NCBI GenBank assembly: GCA_964650355.1
Contig: CAZYTL010000003.1
Location: 1,750 to 65,749, forward strand
Origin: an uncultured Gammaproteobacteria bacterium
Lineage (GTDB): Bacteria; Patescibacteriota; Microgenomatia; CAYXHB01; CAZYTL01
Direction: 5' to 3'
Length of the DNA stretch: 64,000 nucleotides
A program made the translations under genes and the position numbers. The notes under the pieces were generated by a model that was not told where the DNA came from, did not search any database, and saw only the letters and a program-made list of their open reading frames with translations. Each line of letters starts with the position of its first letter. Within the stretch, counting starts at the first letter, position 1. This document shows positions 464-47,328 of this stretch, piece by piece.

Positions 464-764
464 AAAATTCTCCCCTAAACCCAATATACAATGTCGCCCC
501 TTACCAGTAAACTGCCTCCAGCCCAGCATTACAAATCTCTACTTACGACCTCCAATTTACTTATTCCTATCCCTACTCCTACTGAATTCTGATTACCGAT
601 TACTGGTTACTGTTTACCGATCTCTAATCTCCCAGTCTCGCAATTTCCTGATTTCTACTTCCTCTTCTCCGTCTTCTGTTTTCCATCTTCTACCTTCTAA
701 CTTCTATCTACTTCCTATTTGCCATCTACCGTTTACTGTTTACTGATTGCTGATTTCTTCTCAT
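464..764. repeat. Degenerate heptamer-periodic tandem array (about 40 units, + strand CTTCTAN/CTGNTTA; coding strand TAA/TAG-containing 7-mers) filling the pilB-pilC spacer
   Basis: Direct reading: cttctac cttctaa cttctat ctacttc ctatttg ccatcta ccgttta ctgttta ctgattg. On the gene strand this gives TAA/TAG every 7 nt, so stops fall in all frames. Confidence 0.55.
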
Positions 765-2459
765 CTACGTCTGATTAATCACCCGCACCAACTCTTCCAG
801 AGTCGTCAACCCCATTCTCACCTTCCTCAATCCGTCCTCAAACATCGTCCTCATCCCCGCCTTTCTGGCCGCGGTCACAATCTCGTCTGCCGAACTCTTC
901 TTCATCACCAAATCCTTAATCTCTTCAGTCACTTCCAACACTTCAAATACCCCTTGCCTACCTTTATACCCCGTGTGGTCGCACACGTCACATCCGGCTC
1001 CTCTATACAATCGCGCCTTCTTCAATTCATTAAATAACGTTTCGTCCAAGGCCCTGGCCACCTCTAACGTTTCTTTCAGTCGTTCTTCGTCATCACCACT
1101 CATCTGATAAGACATCCTGCACACCGAACAAATCTTTCTCACCAATCTTTGGGCAATTACCACGTTCACTGTCGAAGCCACCAAAAACGGCTTAATTCCC
1201 ATATCAATCAACCGGAGTAACGTCGTCGCCGCATCATTTGCATGCAGAGTCGAAAGCACCAAATGTCCGGTCATCGCCGAATTCACGGCAATATTCGCTG
1301 TCTCCTGATCCCGAATCTCTCCCACCCCAATGATATCGGGATCCTGCCGCACAATCGCTCTTAGCCCTTCAGCAAACGTCAGATTCGTTTCCGGATTCAC
1401 TTGAATCTGGCTCACCCCTTTCACATCATACTCCACCGGATCCTCAATCGTCGAAATGTGCACATCTCTGGTATTCAGAATCTTTAACACCGCGTAGACA
1501 GTCGTCGTTTTTCCACTTCCAGTTGGTCCCGTCACCAACACCATTCCCTGCGGAATTTTGATAATCCTCCTGACCTTCCCCAAATCACTATCCGACAACC
1601 CCAAACTACTCAAAGTATAAGAAGTCGTCCTGGTCGACAGCAGCCTCATCACAATATTTTCCCCTTTGGTCACTGGCACAATCGATACCCTCACATCCAA
1701 CTGTTCTCCGTCAATATTCATCTTAAATTTGCTATCCTGAGACGCCTGGTGCTCATCAATCCGCAACTTGGACAAAATCTTTATCCTGGTCAACATAAAA
1801 TCCGCCAAATCCTTAGACAGAGAAAACATATCATGCATCACCCCGTCAATCCTGAACCTCACCAAAGTATTATCCATTTGCGGTTCCACATGCACATCAG
1901 AAGCATCACTCCGATAAGCATACTTCATCAACATCTCCGTCATCTTTACCGACAGTTGGTTCCTTTGCTCTCTGCCCAAATCCTCACCCTTCCACTTCTC
2001 TAAATACCCTTCCAGTTGTTTTTTCAAATCCAACCTATATTTTGACAACGCATTATGCAAATCATTGTCCGTAATCAAATAAGGTGTCACCTTTTGCCCC
2101 GTATGCTTGCGCAACATATTTAACACCTCTAAATCGTCCGGATTTACCATCCCCACGTGTAATCCCTTTTCATCCTTTGCAAAAGCGATCACCTCCTCGG
2201 CCCGCGCCATCGGTTCCGGAATTTCCCGCAGCACCTTCTCATCTATCTGCATATTCCTCAAATTCACAAACTCAAATCCTTTCGAGTCTGCCACCAGCCT
2301 CCCCAGCTGATCATCCTGAATCAATCCTTTCTCTACCAACAACTCCCTCATCTCCCGCTTCTCTTCCTCAGCCTCCATCTTCACTTCCTTGAACATCTCT
2401 TCACTCACGTGGCCCGGCCTCACCAACACGTCATGTAACTCATCAATCGTCACCTTCAT
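765..2459 (-). CDS. pilB: Type IV pilus assembly / type II secretion ATPase (GspE/PilB family)
   Basis: Walker A LVTGPTGSGKTTT, GspII_E N-terminal domain, C-terminal tetracysteine CSVC...CDVC, 564 aa. Confidence 0.9.
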   Translation of the reverse strand: MKVTIDELHDVLVRPGHVSEEMFKEVKMEAEEEKREMRELLVEKGLIQDDQLGRLVADSKGFEFVNLRNMQIDEKVLREIPEPMARAEEVIAFAKDEKGLHVGMVNPDDLEVLNMLRKHTGQKVTPYLITDNDLHNALSKYRLDLKKQLEGYLEKWKGEDLGREQRNQLSVKMTEMLMKYAYRSDASDVHVEPQMDNTLVRFRIDGVMHDMFSLSKDLADFMLTRIKILSKLRIDEHQASQDSKFKMNIDGEQLDVRVSIVPVTKGENIVMRLLSTRTTSYTLSSLGLSDSDLGKVRRIIKIPQGMVLVTGPTGSGKTTTVYAVLKILNTRDVHISTIEDPVEYDVKGVSQIQVNPETNLTFAEGLRAIVRQDPDIIGVGEIRDQETANIAVNSAMTGHLVLSTLHANDAATTLLRLIDMGIKPFLVASTVNVVIAQRLVRKICSVCRMSYQMSGDDEERLKETLEVARALDETLFNELKKARLYRGAGCDVCDHTGYKGRQGVFEVLEVTEEIKDLVMKKSSADEIVTAARKAGMRTMFEDGLRKVRMGLTTLEELVRVINQT

Positions 2460-2518
2460 ATACTACTTACTTTAAAATAAGGATTGCAGTATATACCGCT
2501 CCCCGAAGAACATCGGGG
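2457..2518 (-). promoter_or_regulatory. Conserved 45-nt upstream module (also found upstream of ftsH) plus 6-6-6 palindromic hairpin ccccga-agaaca-tcgggg
   Basis: Gene-strand AGCGGTATATACTGCAATCCTTATTTTAAAGTAAGTAGTATATG is about 40/46 identical to 58765-58810. It contains a TATACT -10-like hexamer. The hairpin at 2501-2518 lies just upstream. Confidence 0.4.
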
Positions 2519-2695
2519 CATCGGTATAAATAACCTCCTTTTTTCTTGGGACAACCTGGTAGGCTAAACACATCATCAATCTACCAGCATCCCAAACTCT
2601 TCCTTAATACTACCCTGCCCCAGCCTATTAGAAAAGCACCATCAAGCTACCGGACCACGTAATTCAAATTTCTTCCCCAGCAATAACCCTCACTC

Positions 2696-3106
2696 TCATC
2701 CCTTCTTTCCCAACAGTGATTTTATCTTCTCCACCACTCCCTTCATCGAAGTATTCGTCTTCACCAAATAATCCACTGCCCCCAATTCCATTGCCTTCTT
2801 CATATCCCCGGGCTGGCCCAAATTAGACACCACCATCACCTTCAGTTTTTTTAACTCCGCATCCTTCTTTAGTGACTCCAAGACTTCAAACCCATCCATT
2901 CCCGGCAAAATCAAATCCAGCAAAATCAAATCAGGCTTAAACTTCTTTGCCTTCTCCACCACACCCTCTCCTTCAGTCGCCACTTCCACTTCATACCCCG
3001 CTCTTTCTAACCCGTCTTTATAAGCTCGCCAAATAAAATCATCATCCTCCACCAATAAAATTTTTCCTTGCCCTGATTGATCTGAACTCACTTCACCCAT
3101 AGGCAC
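2696..3106 (-). CDS. Stand-alone response regulator receiver domain (CheY-like)
   Basis: LLVEDDD...D(L)ILLDLILPGMDGF...K(T) receiver motifs, 136 aa with no output domain. Confidence 0.85.
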   Translation of the reverse strand: MPMGEVSSDQSGQGKILLVEDDDFIWRAYKDGLERAGYEVEVATEGEGVVEKAKKFKPDLILLDLILPGMDGFEVLESLKKDAELKKLKVMVVSNLGQPGDMKKAMELGAVDYLVKTNTSMKGVVEKIKSLLGKKG

Positions 3107-3123
3107 CTCTCAATTAATCACTT

Positions 3124-3522
3124 TCATCCCCCGATCGTTCCCAATCTAAACTTCACCCTTTGTACAATCTCCGCCATACTGTAATCAGTCTTAATCAAAT
3201 AATCATCTACTCCCAGCTTCTTAGCCTGACCAATATCCGTATCCGTGCTTGACACCGTCAACACCACCACCGGAATCTTCTTTAACTCCTCATCTTCCTT
3301 CAATATCTGTAACACGTGGAAACCATCCATCCCCGGCATAATCAAATCCAACAGCACCAAATCCGGCTTTTCCGCCTTTATTAACTCCAAACCCTTTTGC
3401 CCGTCCAAAGCCAACTTCACCTCAATCCCTGCCCTCTCCAGACCTTCTTTATAGGCTTGTGCAATCAACTCCTCATCCTCAATCAACACCACCTTAGATT
3501 TAACATTTTCATCCATATCCAT
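3124..3522 (-). CDS. Stand-alone response regulator receiver domain (CheY-like), tandem paralog
   Basis: VVLIEDEE...DLVLLDLIMPGMDGF...DYLIKT, 132 aa. Confidence 0.85.
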   Translation of the reverse strand: MDMDENVKSKVVLIEDEELIAQAYKEGLERAGIEVKLALDGQKGLELIKAEKPDLVLLDLIMPGMDGFHVLQILKEDEELKKIPVVVLTVSSTDTDIGQAKKLGVDDYLIKTDYSMAEIVQRVKFRLGTIGG

Positions 3523-3601
3523 TTCAATCTACCACAATTAAATTCCTCCGTCTATCCTCTGTTTATCTTCGGATCCTCATTTCTATCACACCCACCCCCA
3601 C

Positions 3602-4258
3602 ATGTATAATCAAGACATGGATGAAACTTACAGTCCTAAAGAACCATCGGAAGAAAACGTAAATACTCATTGTAGACAATACTCAGAGACCATCTTAGCC
3701 AATCACTATCCTGACAAACAATTCCAAGTGTTTTCCGACCGAGCCTCTTCCTCACGGTTGTATACTTGTCCGGAAGATCCCTCTCATGTGTACAAAGTCT
3801 ATGTGCCCATGACAGCCATCATGACCAATCCTGACGATCCCATGAATTTTCGATTCACCCAAGATGAGCAAACTTATCATGTCAACGAAGTGGCAAATAC
3901 CACCCTATTAGCTGAGCACGGACTGGCTCCCCAAGTATACGAAGTAAAAGGATCTCCTAGTAACCCAGAAATTTTAGACTTAGAAAAAATAGACTATGAT
4001 CCAGACGGCTTAAGTAAACTTCCCCAGGAAGAACGGATCCGCTTGGCAGATGAATTATTCAATCAACTGTGTCGTCTCAACAAAACTGCCATTGATATGG
4101 AAATAGTTTATGCCAAAGGCAGTCAGACCATTAAGATCATTGATTGCGGAGCAATTACCGATATAGATGAAAAGACGGATCTCCTACTCCAAAAGAAACT
4201 ACTTTACGGCCACTTTGGATTAGGCATGCATTTAGTTGAAAGGGAGCCAGCTAACTAA
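3602..4258 (+). CDS. Hypothetical protein (possible atypical kinase-like fold, unsupported)
   Basis: 218-aa ORF between the RR and HK genes on the opposite strand. Composition is typical of + strand genes here. No firm motif. Confidence 0.45.
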   Translation: MYNQDMDETYSPKEPSEENVNTHCRQYSETILANHYPDKQFQVFSDRASSSRLYTCPEDPSHVYKVYVPMTAIMTNPDDPMNFRFTQDEQTYHVNEVANTTLLAEHGLAPQVYEVKGSPSNPEILDLEKIDYDPDGLSKLPQEERIRLADELFNQLCRLNKTAIDMEIVYAKGSQTIKIIDCGAITDIDEKTDLLLQKKLLYGHFGLGMHLVEREPAN

Positions 4259-4310
4259 CCATCACCACTTTCTTTCCTCCTTTTACCTTCTAAAACTTCG
4301 ACCTTAGTTT

Positions 4311-5753: not shown

Positions 5754-5875
5754 AAGTATCTCCTTTCCTCTCTACCATAGCACATAAAGTCCTCGGGAAA
5801 AACAAGAAATATACAGCACTACACCAGCATTCATCTTCCAACCCTCTCCTTCTGTCCTCATTATCTCCTTACGAT

Positions 5876-9985: not shown

Positions 9986-10585
9986 TTAGTTATACCTATT
10001 CATCGCCATCTCCATCCCCTCCGTCAGAGCCGCCTCTACCGCATCCCCGCATCTTTCCACCATCTCATCCACTACCTTCCGTTCTTTAGCAATAAACTTC
10101 TCCAACACCCAACTCGTCGTCGCATCATCATCTAACTGTGTCTTCATATCGTTGCCAGGCTTACCTATTCCCAATCTAAATCTGATAACTGACAACTGAT
10201 AACTGACAACTGTTAACTGTCTAATCACAGATTCGACACCATGGTGCCCAGCCGCCCCTCCCCCCACCTGAATCTTCAATCGCCCCAAATCCAGGTCCAC
10301 ATCATCGTGAATCAAATACACATTTTCTACTTTTCCCTCATGATTCTTTAACGCATATCTAACCGGAAAACCGGAATTATTCATAAAATCCATCGGTTTC
10401 AACAACTCAACTTCAATTCCATTAACAGAGACCTTCGCGAAATCAGCTTTCGCCTTTTTGCTGAACGACCACCCCCCTCCCCATCTTTCCGCCAAACCGC
10501 CCACTACCTCAAACCCCACATTGTGCCGCGTCCCTTTATACTTCTCCCCCGGGTTACCCAGACCTACGATTAATACCATATCCAA
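9986..10585 (-). CDS. pth: Peptidyl-tRNA hydrolase
   Basis: N-terminus MVLIVGLGNPGEKYKGTRHNVGF and RLGIGKPG are canonical Pth motifs. Carries an in-frame tandem repeat insertion. Confidence 0.9.
   Translation of the reverse strand: MDMVLIVGLGNPGEKYKGTRHNVGFEVVGGLAERWGGGWSFSKKAKADFAKVSVNGIEVELLKPMDFMNNSGFPVRYALKNHEGKVENVYLIHDDVDLDLGRLKIQVGGGAAGHHGVESVIRQLTVVSYQLSVIRFRLGIGKPGNDMKTQLDDDATTSWVLEKFIAKERKVVDEMVERCGDAVEAALTEGMEMAMNRYN
10183..10222. repeat. Tandem ctgataactgacaa x2.8 (heptamer family CTGNNAA) translated in-frame inside pth as QLTVVSYQLSVI
   Basis: Direct reading ctgataa ctgacaa ctgataa ctgacaa ctgttaa ctgtc. It replaces the loop preceding the conserved RLGIG motif. Confidence 0.75.
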
Positions 10586-18224: not shown

Positions 18225-20891
18225 TCACTGTAACTTTTTACCATCTAATTTTTTATATGCCAATTTCACCGCCTCAATCACTCCTACCACCCCCAAACTT
18301 AAAGCCCCCACCATCAGCCACTCCTGCCAAAAAATCACCTCCAAACCCAGCAACATCCTCAGCCAAGGCACATAAATCGGCACCACCGTCAATCCCAATC
18401 CTACCAATACCGCTCCCACCAGCCACCGATTTTCTCCTAACGACTCCTCCCAAATATTCTTAGTCAGACTCCTACAGGAAAACACATACAATAACGAATC
18501 TAGCCCCAACGCCGCAAATACAATCGTTCTTCCGAACTCCTGCCCAAACCTGGGCGCAAACCAGCCGAAAATCGCCAAGCTTGCCAGACCAGTTACTAAC
18601 GAAATCACTCCGATTAGTACCGCAATCTCACTGTCAATCAACGGCAGTTTAGGCGAAATCGGCTTTCTCTTGAGTACATTTTTATCTCGAGGATCAATCG
18701 TTAACGCCAAATTAGGCAACCCATCATCAATCAGATTAATCCACAAAATCTGCGCCGCGCTGATTGCTAACGGCCAGCCCATTACCAGACTGCCAATCAC
18801 CAAAATCAATTCTGAGAAAGTATCAGATAACAAATATAAAATAATCTTGCGCAAGTTATCAAAAATTCCTCTTCCCTCAGCTATCGCCCCCACAATCGTT
18901 CTAAAATTATTATCCAGCAACACCATATCCGCCGCCTCCCTCGCCACCTCCGTCGCTTCCCCCACCACAATCCCGATATCAGCCGCAGTAATTGCCGGCG
19001 CGTCATTAACCCCATCACCCATCATCCCTACCACTTCACCCTTGGCTTTCAAAGCCTTTACAATCCTTAACTTCTGCTGCGGTCTGGTCCTGGCAAAAAG
19101 TTTCACATCTTTAATTCTTCTTTGCAGCACCTCTTCCTTTAATTTCTCCAGCTCAAATCCTTCCATCACCGAACCATCCGGCAAATCGATTCCCAACTCC
19201 TTCATCACCGCCTCTGCGGTCGGTCGATAATCACCCGTGATCACCTTCACCTCCACCCCTGCTTCTTGAGCTTGTCTCAACGCCGTCTTTACCCCTTCCC
19301 GAATCGGATCAGCGTAAGCCATCAATCCCAGCCATCGCAACCTCACTTTCGCAAATTTGTGATCCCGTAAATCTGCAAACATTTCCTTCGTCTCCTTTAT
19401 ACTCCGCGCTTTAAAATAAGCTAATCCGATCATCCGCCTTCCCTTATTCCCCAATTCTTCTATCCTCTCTCGACTCTTGACTCTTGACTCTTGCTTCTCT
19501 TGACTCCAGCCAAGCACCACTTCCGGTGCCCCCATCACAAACACTTCCCTCTTATGCCTGGTTGCCAGAAATCTTGCATCAGTCGAAAACGGAATACTCT
19601 CATCCCTCGGAAATTCATCCACCCATACCTGGGGGTCAACTGCCCCCTTCACTTTCTTGCGTGCCCGCTCGCGCAACCAACTCCACCTCGCTAATTCAGT
19701 CCCGTCTCGTAAATCATTCGCCAACGCCCCTGCCCGCATCCCCAACACCTCATCCGTGAAGTCTACTTCCATCACCTTCAAATCCCCTTCCGTCAGCGTT
19801 CCTGTCTTATCCACGCACACCACTGTCACCGTTCCCAAAGTCTCTGCCGCCACCAACTTCCGTACCAAGGCTTTGTGCTTCAAAATCCTCTGCATCCCGA
19901 TTGCCAAAATCGCCGTCAATGCCACCACCAGTCCCTCGGGAATGGCCGCTACTGCCAGAGCTACTGACAACTCAAACATCTCCACCGGATCTCGCCCCGA
20001 TGCCAGCCCATACCCGAACACCCCGATCGCTGCCACCATTACTCCGATCGTCAACCACCTGGCCAGCTGCGACAGTCTTTTCTCCAACGGCGTCTCACCT
20101 TCCTGTTCTTCCTCCAAACTCTTGGCAATCTTCCCCACCTCAGTGTGCATCCCAATCTTAGACACCACCATTACCCCGGATCCGCTGGCCACTACCGTGC
20201 CCATAAAAGCCTCTGCTTCAGTCTCTAAGTTTCCAGGTTTCCAATCTCCCCAGTTAAATTCTGCTTCTTTGAAACCTTTTAATTTAGAAAGCTCGAAACC
20301 TATTTTCCTTACTGGCACACTCTCTCCGGTCAAAATCGCCTCATTAATCAACAGGTCAGTCGCTTCCGCCACCACCCCGTCCGCCGGCACCTTGTCACCC
20401 TCGTACAGCAATACCACATCCCCAGGTACTAACTCTCTCGCATCCATCTCCTGCTGCTCTCCGTCTCTCCTCACCATTGCTCGAGGTGTCAACACCTTCT
20501 GCAACGCCTCCAATCCCCGTTGGGCATTTCTTTCCTGGATAAACCCCAATACTGTATTCACCACCACGGCCAAACCAATCACTGCTGAATCTGTAAACTC
20601 CTGTAGCCATACCGTTACTAACCCTGCAACCACCAACACCAACACCAGCGGATTCTTAAACTGCCGCACTAAGAAATCCCAGTCAGTTGGCGGTCGTTTT
20701 CCCTCCAACTCATTCCGTCCGGATTCCGCCCTTCGCTTCACCACCGCTTCTCGACTCAACCCCCGCTCCAAATAATCTTCAATCTTATCTAGCCCTCCAT
20801 TTTTGCCGTTTGAGCTTTGAGCTTTGAGATTCTCATTCATATCCCCATCATACCGGAAATCCCTCACAAATCTACCCGTATTCATTCCCAA
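18225..20891 (-). CDS. P-type cation-transporting ATPase
   Basis: CVDKTGTLTEG phosphorylation site and MMGDGVNDAPA hinge. About 10 TM segments, 888 aa. Contains in-frame heptamer repeats (gactctt x3 at 19472-19492, tgagctt x3 at 20811-20831). Confidence 0.9.
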   Translation of the reverse strand: MGMNTGRFVRDFRYDGDMNENLKAQSSNGKNGGLDKIEDYLERGLSREAVVKRRAESGRNELEGKRPPTDWDFLVRQFKNPLVLVLVVAGLVTVWLQEFTDSAVIGLAVVVNTVLGFIQERNAQRGLEALQKVLTPRAMVRRDGEQQEMDARELVPGDVVLLYEGDKVPADGVVAEATDLLINEAILTGESVPVRKIGFELSKLKGFKEAEFNWGDWKPGNLETEAEAFMGTVVASGSGVMVVSKIGMHTEVGKIAKSLEEEQEGETPLEKRLSQLARWLTIGVMVAAIGVFGYGLASGRDPVEMFELSVALAVAAIPEGLVVALTAILAIGMQRILKHKALVRKLVAAETLGTVTVVCVDKTGTLTEGDLKVMEVDFTDEVLGMRAGALANDLRDGTELARWSWLRERARKKVKGAVDPQVWVDEFPRDESIPFSTDARFLATRHKREVFVMGAPEVVLGWSQEKQESRVKSRERIEELGNKGRRMIGLAYFKARSIKETKEMFADLRDHKFAKVRLRWLGLMAYADPIREGVKTALRQAQEAGVEVKVITGDYRPTAEAVMKELGIDLPDGSVMEGFELEKLKEEVLQRRIKDVKLFARTRPQQKLRIVKALKAKGEVVGMMGDGVNDAPAITAADIGIVVGEATEVAREAADMVLLDNNFRTIVGAIAEGRGIFDNLRKIILYLLSDTFSELILVIGSLVMGWPLAISAAQILWINLIDDGLPNLALTIDPRDKNVLKRKPISPKLPLIDSEIAVLIGVISLVTGLASLAIFGWFAPRFGQEFGRTIVFAALGLDSLLYVFSCRSLTKNIWEESLGENRWLVGAVLVGLGLTVVPIYVPWLRMLLGLEVIFWQEWLMVGALSLGVVGVIEAVKLAYKKLDGKKLQ

Positions 20892-21705: not shown

Positions 21706-21883
21706 ACCCCTATCTTACCAGAACCTTCCCCGCTCTCAACCCCAAATATCAAGTCAATGAAAGACCCGATACGTAACACGTAACAAGAGACCAGAATAAA
21801 GGGGCAAAAACTAACTACAATTTAATTTCTACTAATTTCTACTCGCTATTTACCGATTACAGTTTACTATTTACTGATTACTC
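21706..21883. repeat. Spacer with tandem repeats (acgtaac x2, aatttctact x2, heptamer ttactgN array) directly after the ligase stop
   Basis: Same heptamer family as 464-764. On the gene strand it reads TAATCAG TAAATAG TAAACTG TAATCGG TAAATAG, giving stops in all frames. Confidence 0.5.
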
Positions 21884-23878
21884 TCACTTCTGCAACTCAA
21901 ACAACCGTACGACCTCCTCCAACGTACTTGCCTGCTCCGCCCCTTTGTCGTCCCGAAACTTCACCAGTCGCGGAAACCGCAACCCGTAATCAGAAGTATG
22001 CACCTTTGACTTCGTAATATTATCCGCCGCAATCTCTACCACCAGTTCTGGTCTCACCCACACATCCGGCTGCAAATTCTTATTCACCTCATATTCTTTG
22101 GGCTGCTTCTCGACTTCCAATTTCTTTAATCTGCCTTGCAGATCGCCAAACTGCTCATCCGTCAATCCCGTCCCGATCTTGGACACAGTTAAATAACCAC
22201 TCTTTAACTTCCCATCCTTTCTTTTAATTGTCCGATCCTCGTTACCGCGTACGCCTACGAGAAACGCTCCCAACCCAAACTTTGCTCTCTGCCCTCTGCC
22301 CCGGTAGTATCCCATGACCACACAATCCAATGTATCCGCCAACCCCGCCTTTGCTTCCTCCACCTCTTTCATCTTCACCCAATTCCACCCTTTCCTACCC
22401 GGAACATACGGACTGCCCCATCGCTTAATAATTACTCCCTCCAGCCCCGTTTTCAAATATTTCTTATGCAAATTACGACATTGATTAGCATCTTTCGTCA
22501 CCAATTGAGGAACTATTTCCAACACTTTACCTTTCTTTATCACCTTCTCTAGCAACTTCCTCCGGTCACTCAAAGGCAGGCCATGTACGTCCCCATCGCG
22601 CCCTTTAGCTTCTTTAACGTACAAAATATCAAAACACATGAACTTCAACGGCACTTTCCCTCTCTGCTCCTCAACTGCGTACTTCCTCTTCCTGGTCATC
22701 GTTACCTGAAAAGGTAGCCACTTGCCTGTTTTCGGGTCCACCCCAATGGCCTCGCAATCAAAAATCGCCTCCTGCATACCTCTATCTAATTGATCAGCAA
22801 TTGTATGCAATTCAGGAAACATATAACTATTCTCCTCCAAATTCCTGGTGAAACTCCTCACCTGCCAACTATCTTCCCGTTTGCCTGCTCTCCGCCTCCA
22901 ATGTATCTGCAGTCTCGTTCCGTCGTATTTCGGTTCCACTGCCACCTCTCCCATCTTTTCCAAGATCTCATCAAAACTCTTCAGCCTCTGGCACAACTCC
23001 GCCACCACCGGTGTACCTAAACGGACCTTTACCTTACCCAAAGCTCGGGTTATCTCACTTGACAGAGCTGATAAACTCTTTAAATCAGCTCTATCATCCT
23101 GAGCAGACCCCAAACCATGTGGGGTTTGAGGCTGTCGAAGGATCTTGGCTACTCTACTCCTTACTTGCTTCGCAATCAGTCCCACATCCGCCGCCACATT
23201 ATAGGCGTCCTCCAACTCCTCGTGCAGCGACTTATCCCCCGTCACCATCCAGCTCAACCCGTCCAAAATCGTCATCTCCCCGAACCCCAGCCGCAGCTTT
23301 CCCACCGGAATCCGAGCTATATACTTAGCACTCACTTTATCTACTGACCTCAACAAATCGGCTAACCCTTTTACCTTCCTTTCCTGACTCCCCCTCCCTT
23401 CATCCAGGGCAATCTCCATCAACCGCCTATAAGCCTCATTAACCGACATCTGTCCCTTCACATTTGACAAGGACGATAAACGATTAAAATCGTCCTTGTC
23501 ATCCTGAGCAGACCTCAAACCATGTGAGGTTTGAGGCTGTCGAAGGATCTCTACCTTTTTTTTCTTATTTTCAGCCAAGCTACCCGCTACTAACCCCAAG
23601 TCACCTTCCTTCTTATAGGCTCTCTTCACCTCATCCACTTCCACCTCATAAGCCTGTGCCAAAACTCTCACCATCATTTTTTCCGCCACATTAAACTCCG
23701 TCATTGAGTGTTTTGGCCCCAACTGCCCCAAACTCAAATACACTACTTTATCTATCTCGTTCTGCTTTGCAGAAACAAACAACTCAGCCAATAATCTCGT
23801 CATCTTCAACCGCCCGGACACCTTCTCTAACTTTTCCCAAAACTCAGCCAATTTTCTAAACTCCATCTTCCCTATCAT
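21884..23878 (-). CDS. lig: ATP-dependent DNA ligase
   Basis: KxDG adenylation motif EPKYDGTRLQ plus an OB domain. Carries two in-frame ~87-nt palindromic element insertions. Confidence 0.85.
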   Translation of the reverse strand: MIGKMEFRKLAEFWEKLEKVSGRLKMTRLLAELFVSAKQNEIDKVVYLSLGQLGPKHSMTEFNVAEKMMVRVLAQAYEVEVDEVKRAYKKEGDLGLVAGSLAENKKKKVEILRQPQTSHGLRSAQDDKDDFNRLSSLSNVKGQMSVNEAYRRLMEIALDEGRGSQERKVKGLADLLRSVDKVSAKYIARIPVGKLRLGFGEMTILDGLSWMVTGDKSLHEELEDAYNVAADVGLIAKQVRSRVAKILRQPQTPHGLGSAQDDRADLKSLSALSSEITRALGKVKVRLGTPVVAELCQRLKSFDEILEKMGEVAVEPKYDGTRLQIHWRRRAGKREDSWQVRSFTRNLEENSYMFPELHTIADQLDRGMQEAIFDCEAIGVDPKTGKWLPFQVTMTRKRKYAVEEQRGKVPLKFMCFDILYVKEAKGRDGDVHGLPLSDRRKLLEKVIKKGKVLEIVPQLVTKDANQCRNLHKKYLKTGLEGVIIKRWGSPYVPGRKGWNWVKMKEVEEAKAGLADTLDCVVMGYYRGRGQRAKFGLGAFLVGVRGNEDRTIKRKDGKLKSGYLTVSKIGTGLTDEQFGDLQGRLKKLEVEKQPKEYEVNKNLQPDVWVRPELVVEIAADNITKSKVHTSDYGLRFPRLVKFRDDKGAEQASTLEEVVRLFELQK
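23059..23145. repeat. Double-hairpin palindromic element copy A (in-frame in ligase, translated as ILRQPQTPHGLGSAQDDRADLKSLSALSS)
   Basis: Hairpin 1 gacagagctgat/atcagctctatc, hairpin 2 caaacc-atgtgg-ggtttg, conserved tcatcctgagc and gtcgaaggatct. Confidence 0.75.
23464..23550. repeat. Double-hairpin palindromic element copy B (in-frame in ligase, translated as ILRQPQTSHGLRSAQDDKDDFNRLSSLSN)
   Basis: Hairpin 1 gacaaggacgat/atcgtccttgtc, hairpin 2 cctcaaacc-atgtga-ggtttgagg. Confidence 0.8.
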
Positions 23879-33486: not shown

Positions 33487-33594
33487 ATCCCCTCCACTCT
33501 ATCATAAATTTCCGCACAATTCACGCACTCATTACGTTTAGCAATCAGCAATTTCGGCCTCTGGCCGAAATTTCCACTCCAAAATCTTCACTCC

Positions 33595-34761
33595 TTATTT
33601 TTGATTTTTGCTATTTGATATTTCTAATAGGTATCCTCTTCCTCTTACTGTCCTCAAGTCATACCCGCTTCCCAGTAACTTCTTCCTCAAACGTGAAATC
33701 GCCTGATCCACGGCCTCTTCCGACACTCCTTCAGGATTGTCCCCTGGCCAACCCGCTTCCACCAACTCTTCCCTCTCGCATACTCCCCCTGCCCTATCCT
33801 TTAAACACTTCCACAACCGATACTCAATCTGTGTCAACCTGTTCTCAACCTTAGCCTCTCCGATCTGAGCCTCGCTCGTCTCCTTTCCCTCGCCCTCTGT
33901 CCACGTCTCAGCTCTATCTCTGACAAACCTCTCCACCGCCTCTGACCCAATCACACATTTTTGTTCTCCATTTGACAAAGCTGATAAACTCCTCAGATCA
34001 GCTTTGTCATCCTGAGCGCTCCTAAAACGATGTGACGTTTTAGGGCGTCGAAGGATCTCCTTTACTACTCCCCACCCCCACAACCCCTTATTCATCACCT
34101 CAACACCATCCCTGACGAACTCCACCAACTGCTTTCGTTGTTCTTCGTTCAACCCCCGCCAAATCATCTTCAACATTCCTCTTAGCCTGGCAGAACTTTC
34201 CACCTCCTCCCTGCCTTCCACCAACCATGACTTAACCAATCCCGGAATTCCTCCTGAAAACAAATAAATCTCTTCCCTTTCCTCCTTATTCACCTTCATT
34301 CCTAACCTCCTGGCCACGTTATCAATCACCGCATCTGTTTCTTCTCTCCTACATACCGGAAAATATAACTTTGATTCTGTCACCAACTCATAAAAATTTC
34401 CCATCCTCTCCGCTTCCCGGCTCAAATCACACCTCGTACTCGTCACCACCAAATAAGTCACATGATACTTCCGTTCATCCCTGATCGCCCGCAAATGATT
34501 AAACACCTTCGGTTCAGCCATCTTTAATAACGATTCAAAATGATCTATCACCACCGTCGTTGGTTTCTTCCTGTCAACCTCGCTCATTTCCAGTAATTTA
34601 AACGGCACCAGATTTGCATCCCGCTTCACCAACTTCCTCCCCTTGATCTCTAATTCTCTAATCATCCGGGTCATCCCCCACCCCGGCAAACCGCATAAAC
34701 GCACTGATAACCCGGCATCTAATTTCTCCACCACTGACTTCATTACTTGGCTTCTAGACAT
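33595..34761 (-). CDS. Degenerate P-loop NTPase-like N-domain + C-terminal OmpR-type wHTH (paralog family with 23888 and 43461)
   Basis: LCGLPGWGMTRM (Walker-A-like), VVIDHFE (Walker-B-like) and C-terminal ISRLRKKL...VRGRGYLL. Carries palindromic element copy C in-frame. Confidence 0.6.
   Translation of the reverse strand: MSRSQVMKSVVEKLDAGLSVRLCGLPGWGMTRMIRELEIKGRKLVKRDANLVPFKLLEMSEVDRKKPTTVVIDHFESLLKMAEPKVFNHLRAIRDERKYHVTYLVVTSTRCDLSREAERMGNFYELVTESKLYFPVCRREETDAVIDNVARRLGMKVNKEEREEIYLFSGGIPGLVKSWLVEGREEVESSARLRGMLKMIWRGLNEEQRKQLVEFVRDGVEVMNKGLWGWGVVKEILRRPKTSHRFRSAQDDKADLRSLSALSNGEQKCVIGSEAVERFVRDRAETWTEGEGKETSEAQIGEAKVENRLTQIEYRLWKCLKDRAGGVCEREELVEAGWPGDNPEGVSEEAVDQAISRLRKKLLGSGYDLRTVRGRGYLLEISNSKNQK
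33972..34058. repeat. Double-hairpin palindromic element copy C (in-frame in the 33595..34761 gene, translated as ILRRPKTSHRFRSAQDDKADLRSLSALSN)
   Basis: Hairpin 1 gacaaagctgat/atcagctttgtc, hairpin 2 cctaaaacg-atgtga-cgttttagg. Stem changes relative to copies A and B are compensatory. Confidence 0.8.
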
Positions 34762-36106: not shown

Positions 36107-37237
36107 CTACAACTTCACCACCTTTCCCTTCACTCCTTCTACCAAATGCTCGTCCGCCGTGGTCATCACCGTCTGCTGGTCATTCACCACCTGCATCACC
36201 ACCTTCCTATGCTCATGATCCAACTCCGAAAAAATATCATCCAAAAGTAACACGGGTTTCTCTCCTGTCACCTTCTCCATAAATGCCAACTGCCCCAACT
36301 TCAGCCACAATACCGCCATCCGCTGCTGGCCACGAGAACCGTAAGTGGCAAGGTCAATAGTTCCAAAGCTACGAGGTTTCGAAGTTTCGAAGTCATTATG
36401 GTCACTTTCACCTTGAAACTTAACTATCATGTCATCTCTGTGCGGTCCTACTAGCGTCACCCCAGCCGCTACCTCTTCTCTCCCATACTGTTTCAGCCTC
36501 TGCTCACTAATCACACTGCTGTCATATACTACTTTATATTGTCCGTGAATCTTGAATCTTGCCTGCCCGTCCTCCTGGCGGGAATCTTGAATCTTCTCCC
36601 TACTATTCAAAAACTCAATCAACTCTCTCCGGTATCTCGTTATCACCTGCCCCTCTTTAATCAATAATCGATCCCAAAAGTACAACTGCGACCGACCGGC
36701 AACCCCTTCCTTGATTGCCTGCAATACCTTATTCCTCCTCCGCACACCTTTCTCATAAGACAATAAAGCCCGATAATAATCCGGATAAATCTGACTCAAT
36801 ACCTCATCCAAAAAATTCCTCCTTCGACTCGGGCTCCCTTCAATCAACCTCATATCTCCAGGCCCAAACATTACCACCCGCAAATTCCCCGCAAACGTTC
36901 TTAACTGTCGCCGCACCCCATTCACCATCAATGACTTTCTCGGCACCTTCTTACCTTGCACCTCTCCCCGCGTCACTACCACCTCAAGCTCAGTACTCTT
37001 ATCCCCAAACTCCTCTTGAATCTCTCCCTTCACCCTTCCCACTTCCTTCCCCCACTTCACCATCTCCTCTATCCTCTCCGCTCTGAAACTCTTCCCTGTC
37101 GCCAACAAATAAATCGCCTCCATCAAATTTGTCTTCCCGCTCCCGTTAGCTCCCACCACCACCGTCATCCGCGGCAACTCCAACACAAAATCCTCATGAT
37201 TCCTAAAATCAGCTAACCACAGAGTCTTCAACTTCAC
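36107..37237 (-). CDS. recF: DNA replication and repair protein RecF
   Basis: VVGANGSGKTNLMEAIYLLATGKSFR. Contains in-frame short repeats (gtttcgaa x2 at 36377-36392; gaatctt direct repeats flanking a 22-nt insert at 36547-36596). Confidence 0.9.
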   Translation of the reverse strand: MKLKTLWLADFRNHEDFVLELPRMTVVVGANGSGKTNLMEAIYLLATGKSFRAERIEEMVKWGKEVGRVKGEIQEEFGDKSTELEVVVTRGEVQGKKVPRKSLMVNGVRRQLRTFAGNLRVVMFGPGDMRLIEGSPSRRRNFLDEVLSQIYPDYYRALLSYEKGVRRRNKVLQAIKEGVAGRSQLYFWDRLLIKEGQVITRYRRELIEFLNSREKIQDSRQEDGQARFKIHGQYKVVYDSSVISEQRLKQYGREEVAAGVTLVGPHRDDMIVKFQGESDHNDFETSKPRSFGTIDLATYGSRGQQRMAVLWLKLGQLAFMEKVTGEKPVLLLDDIFSELDHEHRKVVMQVVNDQQTVMTTADEHLVEGVKGKVVKL

Positions 37238-43202: not shown

Positions 43203-43460
43203 CCAGTCTCTCAGTCAATCACATCGGCTTCATAAATTAGTTACTTTCCTAATCCCTCAGTAATTATCTTCATCTCCCTAACATATTGTCTCCTTTACCC
43301 TAGGCATATCAGAATTCTTTCAATCAGGTTCTGTCCGCAATACAGTAAACCCTCTCTCCGAACAATGCGCCATCCACCTCATATCTAACCACCGCTATGG
43401 ATTCCCAATCTAAAGTATTCATTCTCATTTGAGAAATTAATTCAATCCCAAAGGGAACCC

Positions 43461-44501: not shown

Positions 44502-44608
44502 AATATGTCCAAAAGCAAACAGATAAAAGTCAAGAAAACGGCTAACTACGATTGCTAAATTTAATCACTAACATCTAATTATACCGTCAAAAACAACCAT
44601 CTCCAAAA

Positions 44609-45550: not shown

Positions 45551-45573
45551 TTCAATCTTCTTTAGCAAAAATC

Positions 45574-46275
45574 ATGCCCACCCAAGAGAGATTTCCGGCT
45601 ACAGTATCCGTCGCTCTGCTTCTCACTCACGGTAGAAGTAAACGGCTATTACTCACCAGGCAGAAATCAGATCAAGAACAATGGGGACTAATCGCAGGTG
45701 GAGTCCAACAGGGAGAAACTGCATGGAATGCTATTGTCCGTGAAACTTGGGAGGAAGCTAGAATTAAAGAACAAAATATCATTTTCGTCACCGGATGGAA
45801 CAGCCTTGAACCTCACGTAGCGCTAATTAGAGGCCAGGATAAAATCCGCCTAGGCTTAGTCTTCGATTCCACCTACAGCGGCCCCCGTATATCTTTGGAA
45901 GGATGGGAAATATCAGATGATCCCAAGGTAGACCGGGTAAAATTCTTCCGCTGGCAAGAGATTCTCCACCTACTTGAAGATCAATCAAGAATTTACCGGC
46001 CTGAATTTAACTATCCTCAACTCCTCAGATGGCTATTAAAAGATCTTGGCCATAACCCCCATAGAACAATTACAGTCGACCAGTGGTTGCAAACCAATTT
46101 TCAAACCATCCCCGGACTGCAGCCCAAAACAGACAGCCCGAATAGTCAGCCATTCAAGTTAGCTGACCGCTGGGAATACTACTCTCCCTATAACCAGTGG
46201 ATGAAAACACCCGGAATCCATGGACAGGCTACCCGAACCAACTTTGCTAGACCAAGGTGGAAACCTAAACCTTAA
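45574..46275 (+). CDS. NUDIX hydrolase
   Basis: Nudix box GGVQQGETAWNAIVRETWEEARI. Confidence 0.7.
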   Translation: MPTQERFPATVSVALLLTHGRSKRLLLTRQKSDQEQWGLIAGGVQQGETAWNAIVRETWEEARIKEQNIIFVTGWNSLEPHVALIRGQDKIRLGLVFDSTYSGPRISLEGWEISDDPKVDRVKFFRWQEILHLLEDQSRIYRPEFNYPQLLRWLLKDLGHNPHRTITVDQWLQTNFQTIPGLQPKTDSPNSQPFKLADRWEYYSPYNQWMKTPGIHGQATRTNFARPRWKPKP

Positions 46276-46341
46276 AAATTCCATCACCGCTCAAACCTTA
46301 TCACCCACCCGACTACTACGTTATTTATCATCTATTGGTCT

Positions 46342-47328
46342 TTACTTCTGGCACACCGGGCACCAAAACGTCCCCCTTCCTCCCAACGTCACCCGCTTAA
46401 TCTCGCCTCCGTCTTTCCTCAAACAAGCCTCCCCTTCCCTCTGATACGCCTTAAAATGCTCCTGATACTTACCTCCCAAACCTTGCAAATCAAGATACTT
46501 TCCGTCCTGCGCCGTGGCCCCCCCATACTTAATGCCCTCTTCCAACACCTTAATCGTAGCCACCCGCAACGCCTCCGCTTCGTTGTCGCTCAAACTGTTC
46601 GCTGGTCTCTGCGGATCAATCCCTGCTTCCCATAACGCATCATTTGCATATATGTTTCCCACCCCTGCTATCTTGTCCTGATCCATTAATCTTAACTTAA
46701 CAGCTTTCTTACTCGATTTGAATACTTTAGCCCATTCTTCAGCCCCAAACTCACTCGGTTCTTTCCCCAATTTGCTAATAAATGCCCCCTTCTCCACTTC
46801 TGCGGTTGGCACCACCTTTACCCATCCAAAAATCCTCTGGTCATTAAAATATAATACCCCGTCACCATCAGCTTTTAGCTTTGAGCTATTAGCTTTTAGC
46901 TGGTGATTTTTCGCTTGAAAGCGAAAAATCACCCTCGTGTGCTTACTCGGCAACACGCCCACAAAATCCCCTGTGGGATGACCCCCTGCCACCCGATGCC
47001 TTAAATGCTCTACACTCCCTACCCCATGCGGTTCATAAATCAACTGTCCTGTCATCTTCAGGTGAATAACCAAAGATAAGTTGTCAGTTTCGAATTTTGA
47101 GTTTTTATCTATAACTCTTCGCTTTTCGCTATTCGCTATTCGCTTTTGTAAATCTATTACCAGTGCCTTCCCAAACCTCCTCACTCCTACTACCTGGCAA
47201 CCAATCACGGCTGCTTTATCACCCATAAAACTCTTCTCCTTCACTACCTCTACCTCATCAATCACCTTCCCCACCAGCACCTCATCCAACTGTCTCTTAA
47301 TCGTTTCCACCTCAGGTAACTCCGGCAT
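46342..47328 (-). CDS. mutM: Formamidopyrimidine-DNA glycosylase (Fpg/MutM)
   Basis: The true start is probably the internal MPELPEVETI (Pro2 nucleophile). The ORF track start at 47364 adds 12 aa. C-terminal zinc finger CPVCQK. Contains in-frame heptamer arrays and a 15-bp-stem hairpin. Confidence 0.85.
   Translation of the reverse strand: MPELPEVETIKRQLDEVLVGKVIDEVEVVKEKSFMGDKAAVIGCQVVGVRRFGKALVIDLQKRIANSEKRRVIDKNSKFETDNLSLVIHLKMTGQLIYEPHGVGSVEHLRHRVAGGHPTGDFVGVLPSKHTRVIFRFQAKNHQLKANSSKLKADGDGVLYFNDQRIFGWVKVVPTAEVEKGAFISKLGKEPSEFGAEEWAKVFKSSKKAVKLRLMDQDKIAGVGNIYANDALWEAGIDPQRPANSLSDNEAEALRVATIKVLEEGIKYGGATAQDGKYLDLQGLGGKYQEHFKAYQREGEACLRKDGGEIKRVTLGGRGTFWCPVCQK
46869..46933. repeat. Inside fpg: agctttN heptamer x5 followed by near-perfect 32-nt palindrome ggtgatttttcgctt-ga-aagcgaaaaatcacc. 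A second array ttcgctN x4 lies at 47118-47147.
   Basis: Read directly. Translated in-frame as ...HQLKANSSKLKADG... and VIFRFQAKNHQ. Confidence 0.75.

What the first reader, a model, noticed from the sequence alone, without database searches (positions are those of the whole stretch)
464..47147. Pervasive heptamer tandem repeats: 7-nt-periodic stop-rich intergenic arrays and in-frame arrays inside essential genes
The pilB-pilC spacer (464-764) and the ligase-mscS spacer (21706-21883) are built of degenerate 7-mers (coding-strand cagtaaa/cggtaga/taggaag...). Because 7 is not a multiple of 3, TAA/TAG stops appear in every frame directly after the upstream stop codon. Short arrays of related heptamers are embedded in-frame in pth (10183-10222), the P-type ATPase (gactctt x3 at 19472-19492; tgagctt x3 at 20811-20831), recF (36377-36392; 36547-36596) and fpg (agctttN x5 at 46869-46903; ttcgctN x4 at 47118-47147). 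This points to a genome-wide heptamer-generating process (slippage or a site-specific element). It may also have a function as multi-frame translational terminators, or act as contingency loci.
Basis: seen in the sequence. Interest (0 to 1): 0.6.

Follow-up and report, generated by a model that had tools for sequence, protein, structure and literature searches.

The report
Heptamer simple repeats in a CPR bacterium
The window really does carry an excess of short 7-base tandem repeats between genes and inside surface loops of housekeeping proteins, but these belong to a known class of bacterial heptanucleotide simple repeats, are stable rather than switch-like, and are new mainly because of the lineage (an ultra-small Patescibacteria bacterium) in which they occur.

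Summary
Period 7 is the commonest tandem-repeat period in the window: 15 TRF rows against 2.3±1.4 in shuffles. At ≥16/21 matches there are 9 lag-7 segments against 0-1 for the other lags that are not multiples of 3. "Pervasive" overstates it, since about 11 arrays cover 0.8% of the window. One cited recF array has period 8.

The organism is a Patescibacteria/Microgenomates-like bacterium with an extreme C>G strand bias, a feature already published for this group.

Relatives from other samples show the same excess of period 7. Arrays sit at the same places in relatives: just after the pilB stop codon, in one Pth segment, in one Fpg loop and in a RecF loop.

Arrays inside genes map to variable or inserted segments. 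In an AlphaFold model of Fpg they are exactly the two internal low-confidence coils. Where the repeat unit would put a stop codon in frame, that copy is mutated.

Pairs of near-identical contigs differ by 34 and 55 SNPs but have no indels, so these are not contingency loci. The rapid closing of all three frames after stop codons is a by-product of the unit sequence.

One sub-family (TCAGTWA, the reverse complement of TAACTGA/TTACTGA) matches repeats described in Beggiatoaceae, cyanobacteria and Bacteroidetes.

Best reading: slippage-generated heptanucleotide repeats filtered by selection. This is a new member of a known kind.

The parts
580..622 (-). Intergenic array in the pilB-pilC spacer, about 6 units NCAGTAA on the sense (-) strand, which reads TTACTGR/TTACCGA on the + strand
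   Evidence: TRF period 7/14/21 rows; lag-7 segment; sequence
671..726 (-). Degenerate purine-rich array in the same spacer, TAGAAGN-type units (UAG-N4 register in the mRNA)
   Evidence: TRF 687-706; lag-7 segment 671-762; column identity 0.70
727..762 (-). NCAGTAA array starting 3 nt after the pilB stop codon (765-767). It is orthologous to the TCAGTWA array after pilB in L087/L088.
   Evidence: relatives; the blastn alignment runs from pilB into the array
10176..10225 (-). Array inside pth (Pth residues ~120-137, QLTVVSYQLSVIRF): CAGTTRT x5.4 with a 14-nt higher-order unit. On the + strand it reads TAACTGA/CAACTGA.
   Evidence: TRF score 69; translation; 4-residue excess vs PDB Pth; same site carries CAGTTTC x4 in L090 and VSSFQFP in P0242
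19455..19502 (-). Array inside the P-type ATPase (residues ~460-478, SQEKQESRVKSRERIE): GAGTCAA x5.4 with one 9-nt unit
   Evidence: lies in a gapped, poorly aligned stretch of the nucleotide-binding domain vs 6zhf
20799..20837 (-). Array near the ATPase N-terminus (residues ~19-30): CTCAAAG x2.9, perfect copies
   Evidence: TRF 100% matches; lies upstream of the region aligned to solved ATPases
21768..21796 (.). Short ACGTAAC x2.1 array in the ligase-mscS spacer
21848..21884 (-). Array one base after the ligase stop codon (21884-21886): NNGTAAW x4.7. Its consensus is identical, after rotation, to that of array 727-762.
33590..33628 (-). AAATATC-like array x3.4 overlapping the stop codon and C-terminus of ORF 33595-34761
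36546..36596 (-). recF split array: AGATTCA x2 twice, flanking 20 nt. It encodes a ~10-residue excess relative to the L085 RecF.
36372..36393 (-). recF tandem repeat of period 8 (ACTTCGAA x2.8), not 7. It lies in a 17-residue insertion vs solved RecF, in the same loop that holds a heptamer array in L085.
46865..46905 (-). fpg array AGCTAAA x4.6 (residues 142-156 of P0001). The third unit is AGCTCAA, exactly where TAA would fall in frame.
   Evidence: pLDDT<50 coil at 143-153
47110..47153 (-). fpg array AGCGAAW x3.9 (residues 66-80 of P0001). The third unit ends in A, exactly where TAG would fall in frame. The same AGCGAAT units occur in L082.
   Evidence: pLDDT<50 coil at 66-80
63537..63566 (.). 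Weak period-7 array with indels, 5 nt upstream of tRNA-Met
   Evidence: TRF 72% matches, 20% indels
63665..63697 (.). TACGTGA-type array x3.1 between tRNA-Met and the stop codon of ORF 63696-63995

Best explanation
These are heptanucleotide simple-sequence repeats, the class of long SSRs with 5-11-nt units described for many prokaryotes. They are most likely generated by strand slippage during DNA replication, which in this lineage favours 7-nt (and 14- or 21-nt) misalignments. New arrays arise anywhere and selection then filters them.

In spacers any unit survives, including units that contain stop codons. That is why arrays abut stop codons and close all three frames quickly.

Inside genes only certain arrays survive. 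Their net length must keep the frame, they must have no in-frame stop, and they must fall in tolerant segments such as surface loops, termini or variable helices. There they become 7-residue-periodic peptide insertions.

Once fixed, arrays change slowly. They are unchanged between strains that differ by 0.3-2%. They are inherited at the same site across 22-50% protein divergence, while unit sequence and copy number drift or are homogenised.

Shown here: the excess, the lineage-wide distribution, the loop locations, the avoidance of in-frame stops, the short-term stability and the orthologous persistence. Inferred: slippage as the generator, and the reason for 7. The literature suggests 7 reflects the polymerase footprint.
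For: - Excess of period 7 over shuffles and over other lags.
- The same excess in five related contigs from other samples (17 arrays against at most 2 at other non-codon lags) and in 80 distant Patescibacteria loci (25 lag-7 segments, against 0-6 at the other lags that are not multiples of 3 and 8-9 at lags 6, 9 and 12). There, 37 of 58 TRF period-7 arrays are intergenic.
- Diverse units, both within the window and between relatives.
- Higher-order 14- and 21-nt units.
- Fpg: the arrays coincide with insertion sites that vary in length among 18 homologues (283-415 aa). Four relatives carry heptamer arrays at site 1: AGCGAAT in the window and L082, AACTTGA in L083, GTTCCAT in L085.
- AlphaFold2 model of Fpg: the only internal coil segments with pLDDT<50 in the N-terminal domain are residues 66-80 and 143-153, which are the two arrays.
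- RecF: repeats lie in insertions relative to solved RecF and relative to L085.
- Stop avoidance: in both fpg arrays the single deviant unit is the one where TAA or TAG would be in frame.
- Stability: 0 indels against 34 and 55 SNPs.
- Literature: heptanucleotide repeats are the most abundant long-SSR class in many bacteria, and polymerase slippage has been proposed as the cause (Mrazek 2007, as summarised in PMC4679880 and PMC4692102).
Against: - Four arrays at non-homologous sites share the unit family TWACTGA (580-622, 727-762, 21848-21884, pth). There are 6 array pairs within rotation-distance 1, against 2.0 expected (P≈0.025).
- The relatives L087/L088 use the same family in two spacers.
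- Another Patescibacterium (L046) has ATTAGAA arrays in four successive spacers. Unbiased slippage does not predict a heptamer favoured by each genome.
- The presence of an array after pilB is conserved at 78% PilB identity, which could reflect function.
- Slippage itself was not observed: no length polymorphism was found.
- The Pth and ATPase arrays are not clean insertions. They overlie segments that align with ordinary sequence in homologues.
Confidence: 0.6

Rival explanations
1. The intergenic TCAGTWA/NCAGTAA arrays are functional cis-elements. They would be repeated binding sites, in 7-nt register, for an RNA- or single-stranded-DNA-binding protein, as proposed for the TAACTGA repeats of Beggiatoaceae (ribosomal protein S1, Csp, CsrA). 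They would tune translation or mRNA stability within operons such as pilB-pilC. The arrays inside genes would be by-products of the same sequence preference.
For: - Four arrays share a unit family (P≈0.025).
- The same family sits at the same position after the pilB stop in L087/L088, at 78% PilB identity, and those contigs also have a 10-copy array upstream of pilB.
- Arrays are roughly 7-fold denser per nucleotide in spacers than in coding sequence.
- Heptamers favoured by each genome recur in successive spacers of L046.
- The unit is the reverse complement of TAACTGA/TTACTGA, a repeat found in three other phyla.
Against: - The orientation is opposite to the Beggiatoa case (UCAGUWA in the mRNA) and the position differs: after stop codons, not 1-10 nt before start codons.
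- Close relatives L082, L083, L085 and L090 use unrelated units, and none of the other 89 loci has a TWACTGA array.
- Single TWACTGA copies are not enriched: 14 against 11.7 expected.
- No RNA structure signal: z = +0.49 and -0.43.
- No candidate binding protein was identified.
Confidence: 0.2
2. The arrays are footprints of a very small mobile or site-specific element that inserts heptamer blocks, comparable to the small dispersed repeats of Nostoc that associate with heptamer tracts (recalled from memory, not checked here).
For: - The same unit family occurs at non-homologous sites, including inside pth.
- The two fpg arrays, 250 nt apart, differ by one base per unit: AGCTAAA and AGCGAAA.
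- L090 pth holds four arrays of two mutually complementary unit types.
Against: - The units are diverse overall.
- No conserved flanks, terminal inverted repeats or target duplications are visible around the arrays.
- No transposase or reverse transcriptase is linked to them in the window.
- The arrays are inherited vertically at orthologous sites.
Confidence: 0.07
3. The intergenic arrays are selected as fail-safe translational terminators that stop read-through or frameshifted ribosomes in all three frames.
For: All frames close within 39 nt after pilB and 17 nt after the ligase gene, against a window median of 95 nt.
Against: - This property follows automatically from any heptamer that contains TAA or TAG.
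- Genes without arrays close as fast: 13, 14, 17 and 21 nt.
- Arrays also occur upstream of genes, next to a tRNA gene and inside coding sequence.
- Classifying an array as 'intergenic' itself depends on its having stops.
Confidence: 0.05
4. The arrays are contingency (phase-variable) loci that switch genes on and off by gaining or losing units.
For: The unit length is not a multiple of 3, so a change of one unit would shift the frame. Heptanucleotide contingency repeats exist in Haemophilus (PMC8262952, listed).
Against: - The arrays are degenerate.
- The host genes are housekeeping genes (pth, fpg, recF, ATPase).
- Arrays at the same protein sites persist across 22-50% protein divergence.
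- There are zero indels in six arrays across two strain pairs that differ by 34 and 55 SNPs.
- The window is identical to an independent assembly.
Confidence: 0.03
5. The arrays are chance products of the extremely skewed, low-complexity base composition, or an assembly artefact.
For: The + strand has only 12.7% G, which raises the chance of repeats. Several TRF rows score barely above 30.
Against: - Shuffles that keep local dinucleotide content give 2.3±1.4 period-7 rows against 15 observed.
- Other lags in the same sequence give 0-1 segments.
- The sequence is identical in the Logan assembly.
- Related arrays occur in contigs from ENA, JGI and Logan samples.
Confidence: 0.01

Closest known systems
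Long simple sequence repeats with heptanucleotide units in prokaryotes (Mrazek, Guo & Shah 2007, PNAS 104:8472; known here through PMC4679880 and PMC4692102)
   Same: Both are tandem head-to-tail 7-nt units that are over-represented relative to other unit lengths and mostly intergenic. Replication slippage is the proposed origin in both cases.
   Different: The host here is a Patescibacteria/Microgenomates-like genome with extreme strand bias. More than half of the arrays are inside conserved genes, although that survey noted that repeats within coding regions mostly have units that are multiples of 3.
TAACTGA direct repeats of marine Beggiatoaceae, some Cyanobacteria and Bacteroidetes (MacGregor 2015, PMC4679880)
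   Same: The pth array reads TAACTGA/CAACTGA on the + strand. Three spacer arrays are one-base variants (TTACTGA, TTACCGA). As in BOGUAY, the array inside an ORF is in reverse orientation and encodes an SVISYQL-like peptide (VVSYQLSVI). Single copies are not enriched. Arrays of 2-6 copies include 'split' sets with related 7-mers.
   Different: The intergenic arrays here are reversed relative to transcription. They lie just after stop codons rather than 1 to a few nt before start codons. The other ~7 arrays in the window have unrelated units. The family is absent from the other Patescibacteria loci sampled.
STRR heptamers of heterocystous cyanobacteria (Calothrix PCC 7601; cited in PMC4692102) and GGGAATC / GGGGAYT repeats of Xanthomonas and Nostoc (Rehm 2015, PMC4692102)
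   Same: Each genome has its own favoured heptamers, repeated in many spacers. Arrays are retained between the same genes in related species, with variation in length and sequence. Inverted pairs of arrays occur, as in L090 pth.
   Different: The units here are A/T-rich and cannot form G-quadruplexes. The arrays are much shorter (2-6 copies, up to 10 in L087) and far fewer.
Phase-variable contingency loci with SSRs (for example the heptanucleotide repeats at Haemophilus influenzae hmw1A, PMC8262952)
   Same: Short tandem units, 7 nt in some cases.
   Different: Contingency repeats are perfect and long, sit in promoters or at the 5' ends of surface-protein genes, and vary between near-identical isolates. 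None of that holds here.
HutP-type recognition of (UAG-N4)3 RNA (recalled from memory; a lead only)
   Same: The TAGAAGN array at 671-726 and several Patescibacteria spacer arrays (ATTAGAA, AGTTAGG, TTTAGAC) present UAG triplets in a 7-nt register.
   Different: No HutP homologue was sought or found and no terminator lies nearby. Stop-containing units are also favoured by the way arrays get classed as intergenic.

Membership tests
Heptanucleotide long simple sequence repeats (LSSR) | Tandem, head-to-tail copies of a 7-nt unit | tested here: met
   TRF period-7 rows with 2.1-5.4 copies and 72-100% matches; sequences
Heptanucleotide long simple sequence repeats (LSSR) | More or longer arrays than the genome's composition predicts | tested here: met
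   15 rows against 2.3±1.4 (maximum 5) in 60 dinucleotide shuffles
Heptanucleotide long simple sequence repeats (LSSR) | Period 7 in excess over neighbouring unit lengths | tested here: met
   9 lag-7 segments against 0-1 at lags 4, 5, 8, 10, 11, 13; the same in relatives and in 80 other Patescibacteria loci
Heptanucleotide long simple sequence repeats (LSSR) | Generated by replication slippage (length changes by whole units) | tested here: inconclusive
   No length polymorphism in two strain pairs. Copy number and unit do differ between orthologous arrays of more distant relatives. The mechanism itself cannot be observed with these tools.
TAACTGA direct repeats (MacGregor 2015) | Unit TAACTGA, or sets split by a one-base variant, in direct repeats | tested here: met
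   pth array TAACTGA-CAACTGA-TAACTGA-CAACTGT-TAACTG on the + strand. The spacer arrays are only TTACTGA/TTACCGA variants.
TAACTGA direct repeats (MacGregor 2015) | Mostly intergenic, forward orientation, ending a few nt upstream of a start codon | tested here: not met
   The spacer arrays are in reverse orientation relative to both flanking genes. They begin 1-3 nt after the upstream stop codon and lie more than 50 nt from the next start codon.
TAACTGA direct repeats (MacGregor 2015) | Arrays inside ORFs are in reverse orientation and encode an SVISYQL-type peptide | tested here: met
   Pth residues 123-135, QLTVVSYQLSVIR, compared with Table 3 of PMC4679880
TAACTGA direct repeats (MacGregor 2015) | No enrichment of single copies; the repeats are the anomaly | tested here: met
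   14 TWACTGA matches against 11.7±2.9 expected
Contingency / phase-variable SSR locus | Copy number differs between closely related strains or within populations | tested here: not met
   0 gaps against 34 SNPs (L085/L086, 4 arrays) and 0 gaps against 55 SNPs (L087/L088, 2 arrays, one of 10 copies). For the window itself only an identical assembly is available.
Contingency / phase-variable SSR locus | Long perfect tract in a promoter or at the 5' end of a surface or virulence gene | tested here: not met
   The arrays are degenerate, have at most 5.4 copies, and lie in loops of Pth, Fpg, RecF and a P-type ATPase, or in 3' spacers.
Structured regulatory RNA or intrinsic terminator | Stable or conserved secondary structure, a match to an Rfam family, or a stem plus U-tract | tested here: not met
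   Fold z-scores +0.49 and -0.43; no Rfam match at the arrays; no terminator-like site

The most novel reading that the evidence does not exclude
TAACTGA-type heptamer arrays are one functional or actively propagated element shared across very distant phyla: Beggiatoaceae, Cyanobacteria, Bacteroidetes and now Patescibacteria. In this strand-biased Microgenomates-like clade they would be kept at fixed sites (after pilB, inside Pth) by concerted evolution. Heptamer slippage would also be a main source of the lineage-specific loop insertions that make these bacteria's housekeeping proteins unusually variable in length.
Probability: 0.12. Interest if true: 0.65.

Novelty: new member of a known kind. 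Interest (0 to 1): 0.35.

Why it matters
Over-representation of heptanucleotide repeats in bacteria was reported in 2007, but the cause remains unexplained and the function unknown. This window adds a lineage far from the known cases.

It also adds three concrete observations:
- Arrays survive inside conserved housekeeping genes, exactly at disordered loop sites, and have been visibly edited to remove in-frame stops.
- Arrays persist at orthologous sites over deep divergence while staying stable between strains.
- The TAACTGA family turns up again in a fourth phylum.

If heptamer slippage is a regular source of peptide insertions, it would help explain why protein lengths vary so much in these reduced genomes. 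In practical terms the arrays are not phase-variation switches and should not be annotated as such.

Tried and rejected
- RNA structure in the two spacers: MFE z-scores of +0.49 and -0.43, so no signal.
- Rfam at gathering thresholds: only a tRNA and a group I intron, nothing at the arrays.
- Terminator and promoter scans of both spacers: no terminators, and one weak promoter-like hit each, at the level expected by chance.
- Enrichment of single TWACTGA copies: none.
- TWACTGA x3 arrays (up to 3 mismatches) in the other 89 loci: none. Scrambled control units gave 0-4 hits. The family is therefore specific to this genome and its nearest relatives and is not general in Patescibacteria.
- Inverted pairing of arrays around the window's pth: none, although L090 pth has a 32-nt pair that is 88% complementary.
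- Period-7 signal in all Fpg insertions of relatives: present at site 1 in all four sequences. It is absent from the long insertions at sites 2 and 3 of L082, L083 and L085 (lag-7 identity 0.20-0.34). So not every insertion is visibly built from heptamers.
- Segment 37022-37053, flagged at a loose threshold, is C/T-rich low-complexity sequence and not an array.
- Literature: no paper combining 'heptamer repeats' with 'candidate phyla radiation'. The Mrazek 2007 paper is not held in the library. One search failed on syntax.
- Extreme GC skew as a possible artefact: rejected. The genes are intact, the skew holds on both coding strands, and it has been published for this group.

Full report
1. 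What the window is.

Nearly all long ORFs lie on the minus strand. They encode ordinary proteins: PilB-type ATPase, peptidyl-tRNA hydrolase, a P-type ATPase, MscS, an ATP-dependent DNA ligase, RecF and Fpg.

The + strand has 33% C and only 12.7% G. GC skew is -0.27 to -0.56 in every 4-kb bin, AT skew is about 0, and the bias holds within genes on both strands.

The best PilB matches among species-representative genomes are Patescibacteria at 48-56% identity. Fpg relatives include proteins annotated as Candidatus Amesbacteria, a Microgenomates group.

The same one-sided C>G bias has been published for a Microgenomates clade: Ch65, Collierbacteria and Beckwithbacteria. There it was attributed to largely unidirectional replication (PMC7143001). 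Placing the window in or near that clade is my inference.

The PilB and Fpg proteins are on record from a 134,422-nt NCBI contig and from a Logan assembly. The Logan contig from SRR14802573 is 100% identical to window 1-5459.

Yes. TRF reports 15 period-7 rows out of 58, the most of any period. Sixty dinucleotide-preserving shuffles in 1-kb blocks give 2.3±1.4 rows, maximum 5.

A control that needs no shuffling counts stretches with ≥16 of 21 matches at a given lag. It gives 9 stretches at lag 7 (6 coding, 3 intergenic), against 0, 0, 1, 0, 0, 0 at lags 4, 5, 8, 10, 11, 13. Lags 14 and 21 appear as harmonics.

The bulk autocorrelation barely moves in coding sequence, so the signal comes from about 11 discrete arrays that cover 495 nt, or 0.8% of the window. 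'Pervasive' is therefore too strong.

All cited places hold up except recF 36372-36393, which has period 8. recF 36546-36596 is a split array.

Per nucleotide, arrays are about seven times denser in spacers than in genes.

3. Anatomy.

On the sense (minus) strand the spacer arrays read as follows:
- 580-622 and 727-762: NCAGTAA.
- 671-726: TAGAAGN.
- 21848-21884: NNGTAAW.

Two arrays begin 3 nt and 1 nt after the stop codons of pilB and the ligase gene. One overlaps the stop of ORF 33595-34761. One abuts the stop of ORF 63696-63995, next to tRNA-Met.

The arrays inside genes have other units:
- pth: CAGTTRT.
- ATPase: GAGTCAA and CTCAAAG.
- fpg: AGCTAAA and AGCGAAW.
- recF: AGATTCA.

Four arrays (580-622, 727-762, 21848-21884 and pth) form one family. 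There are 6 array pairs within rotation-distance 1, against 2.0 expected from heptamers sampled at random from the window (P≈0.025). On the + strand this family reads TWACTGA, and the pth array is literally TAACTGA/CAACTGA.

4. Arrays inside genes sit in tolerant segments and have been edited by selection.

Fpg. Among 18 homologues, length ranges from 283 to 415 residues because of three hypervariable insertion sites. The window's two arrays are the whole of its insertions at sites 1 and 3.

An AlphaFold2 model has mean pLDDT 80.5. Residues 66-80 and 143-153, which are exactly the array-encoded peptides, are coil with pLDDT<50 between well-predicted strands of the N-terminal domain.

Both fpg units would create an in-frame stop at the third copy: AGC TAA, and GAA TAG. 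In both arrays that copy alone deviates, as AGCTCAA and AGCGAAA.

RecF. The period-8 repeat lies in a 17-residue insertion relative to solved RecF. The heptamer array lies in a ~10-residue excess relative to a relative's RecF.

Pth and the ATPase. These arrays are not clean insertions. They overlie variable segments that still align with ordinary sequence, with a 4-residue excess in Pth.

5. Relatives.

Contigs from other samples that encode Fpg or PilB at 50-78% identity show the same picture. In L082, L083, L085, L087 and L090 (68 kb) there are 17 lag-7 arrays, against at most 2 at any other non-codon lag. L089, which is unskewed, has none.

Fpg site 1 carries a heptamer array in all four lineages examined:
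- Window and L082: AGCGAAT, shared between the two.
- L083: AACTTGA.
- L085: GTTCCAT.

L087 and L088 have 78% PilB identity to the window and a skew of 0.36. They carry TCAGTTA/TCAGTAA units immediately after the pilB stop, which is the same family and position as in the window. They also have a 10-copy (TCAGTWA) array upstream of pilB.

The Pth site of the window's array holds CAGTTTC x4 in L090 and the matching peptide VSSFQFP in another homologue. Most Pth proteins are 4-5 residues shorter at that point.

Eighty more distant Patescibacteria loci (568 kb) also have period 7 as the leading non-codon period: 25 segments, against 0-6 at the other lags that are not multiples of 3 and 8-9 at lags 6, 9 and 12. 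Of their 58 TRF period-7 arrays, 37 are intergenic. Density there is 0.044 per kb, against 0.125 per kb in the window.

6. Stability.

L085 and L086 come from different JGI samples. They differ by 34 substitutions and no gaps over 9,791 nt containing four arrays. L087 and L088 come from ENA and JGI samples. They differ by 55 substitutions and no gaps over 2,901 nt containing a 10-copy and an 8-copy array. The arrays are therefore not hypermutable on the scale of point substitution.

7. Function tests on the spacers.

- There is no excess RNA structure, no Rfam match and no terminator-like site.
- All frames close within 39 and 17 nt after pilB and the ligase gene, against a median of 95 nt. 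Several genes without arrays do as well, and the property follows automatically from a unit that contains TAA or TAG.

8. Interpretation.

The simplest account is the known one for heptanucleotide long SSRs: slippage-type tandem duplication with a preference for 7-nt misalignment. The literature has suggested that 7 nt is the length of DNA held by the polymerase (PMC4679880 and PMC4692102, citing Mrazek et al. 2007). Selection then filters the products.

This explains most of what is seen:
- the diversity of units;
- the 14- and 21-nt higher-order units;
- the enrichment in spacers;
- the positions in loops and at protein termini;
- the edited stop codons;
- slow turnover with orthologous persistence.

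It does not by itself explain why one genome reuses one unit family at unrelated sites, or why that family is the TAACTGA type already seen in Beggiatoaceae, cyanobacteria and Bacteroidetes. That keeps a cis-element reading, or a sequence-specific propagation reading, alive at roughly 0.2.

Against full membership of the Beggiatoa type, the spacer arrays here are reversed relative to transcription and follow stop codons rather than preceding start codons. Contingency switching and selected multi-frame termination are not supported.

9. Verdict.

The phenomenon is a new member of a known kind and of moderate interest. The points most worth following up:
- arrays embedded in conserved proteins at disordered loops;
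- their persistence at orthologous sites;
- the recurrence of TAACTGA-type units in a fourth phylum.

Noticed in passing
window 1-64000: Extreme one-sided strand composition. The + strand has 33.0% C and 12.7% G (GC skew -0.44 overall, -0.27 to -0.56 in every 4-kb bin) with AT skew near 0, and the bias holds within genes on both strands. It is stronger than the 29.8% C / 15.0% G reported for the Microgenomates genome Ch65 (PMC7143001), where near-unidirectional replication was proposed. Related contigs show |skew| of 0.22-0.49.
   Followed up: partly
window 61190-61475 (+): Rfam finds a group I intron at 61222-61424 (56.4 bits, E 1e-11). The flanking sequence looks like the two halves of a tRNA: GCGGGGTAGTGTA...GGAGGGCT on one side, and ...CATAATCCTCCAGACCGGGTTCAACCCCCGGCCCCGCA on the other. 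This probably makes it a CAU-anticodon tRNA interrupted in the anticodon loop. A hairpin plus T-run follows at ~61476-61505. ARAGORN did not call it.
   Followed up: partly
L090 1271-1891 (pth of a relative, JGI 3300037043): This 206-residue Pth gene contains four period-7 arrays: AAGTTTC, AAACTCG, CAGTTTC and AACTCGA. The first two form a 32-nt inverted repeat that is 88% complementary, 92 nt apart. Arrays 3 and 4 have the same complementary unit types.
   Followed up: partly
L087 84-153 and L088 675-744: A near-perfect 10-copy array with a 21-nt higher-order unit (TCAGTAG TCAGTTA TCAGTTA) lies between a response-regulator gene and pilB. It is identical in two samples whose contigs differ by 55 SNPs. 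The window's orthologous spacer (2460-2695) has no array.
   Followed up: partly
L046 2540-2595, 3740-3770, 4656-4734 (distant Patescibacterium): ATTAGAA/ATTAGTA heptamer arrays of 4-8 copies occupy successive spacers of the pil gene cluster. Other loci have their own units right after pilB (AGTTAGG in L066, CCTAAAT in L068, TAATTGA in L080, TTTGTAA x9 in L041). Each genome seems to have a favoured heptamer.
   Followed up: no
window 46342-47364 and alignment A1: Fpg of this clade ranges from 283 to 415 residues. The variation comes from three or four hypervariable, low-complexity insertion sites in an otherwise well-conserved enzyme. One relative (P0015) also has a 29-residue insertion inside the zinc-finger region.
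   Followed up: partly
window 21884-23878 and L085 10169-12121: The ligase here is an ATP-dependent, three-domain DNA ligase (DNA_ligase_A_N/M/C). Gene order fpg-recF...ligase...mscS-ATPase is partly conserved with L085, where toxin-antitoxin genes (PIN/MazE, YafQ) are interleaved.
   Followed up: no
window 21823-21843: A perfect 10-nt tandem duplication (TAATTTCTAC x2.1) lies next to the heptamer array in the ligase-mscS spacer. Slippage here is therefore not strictly limited to 7-nt units.
   Followed up: no
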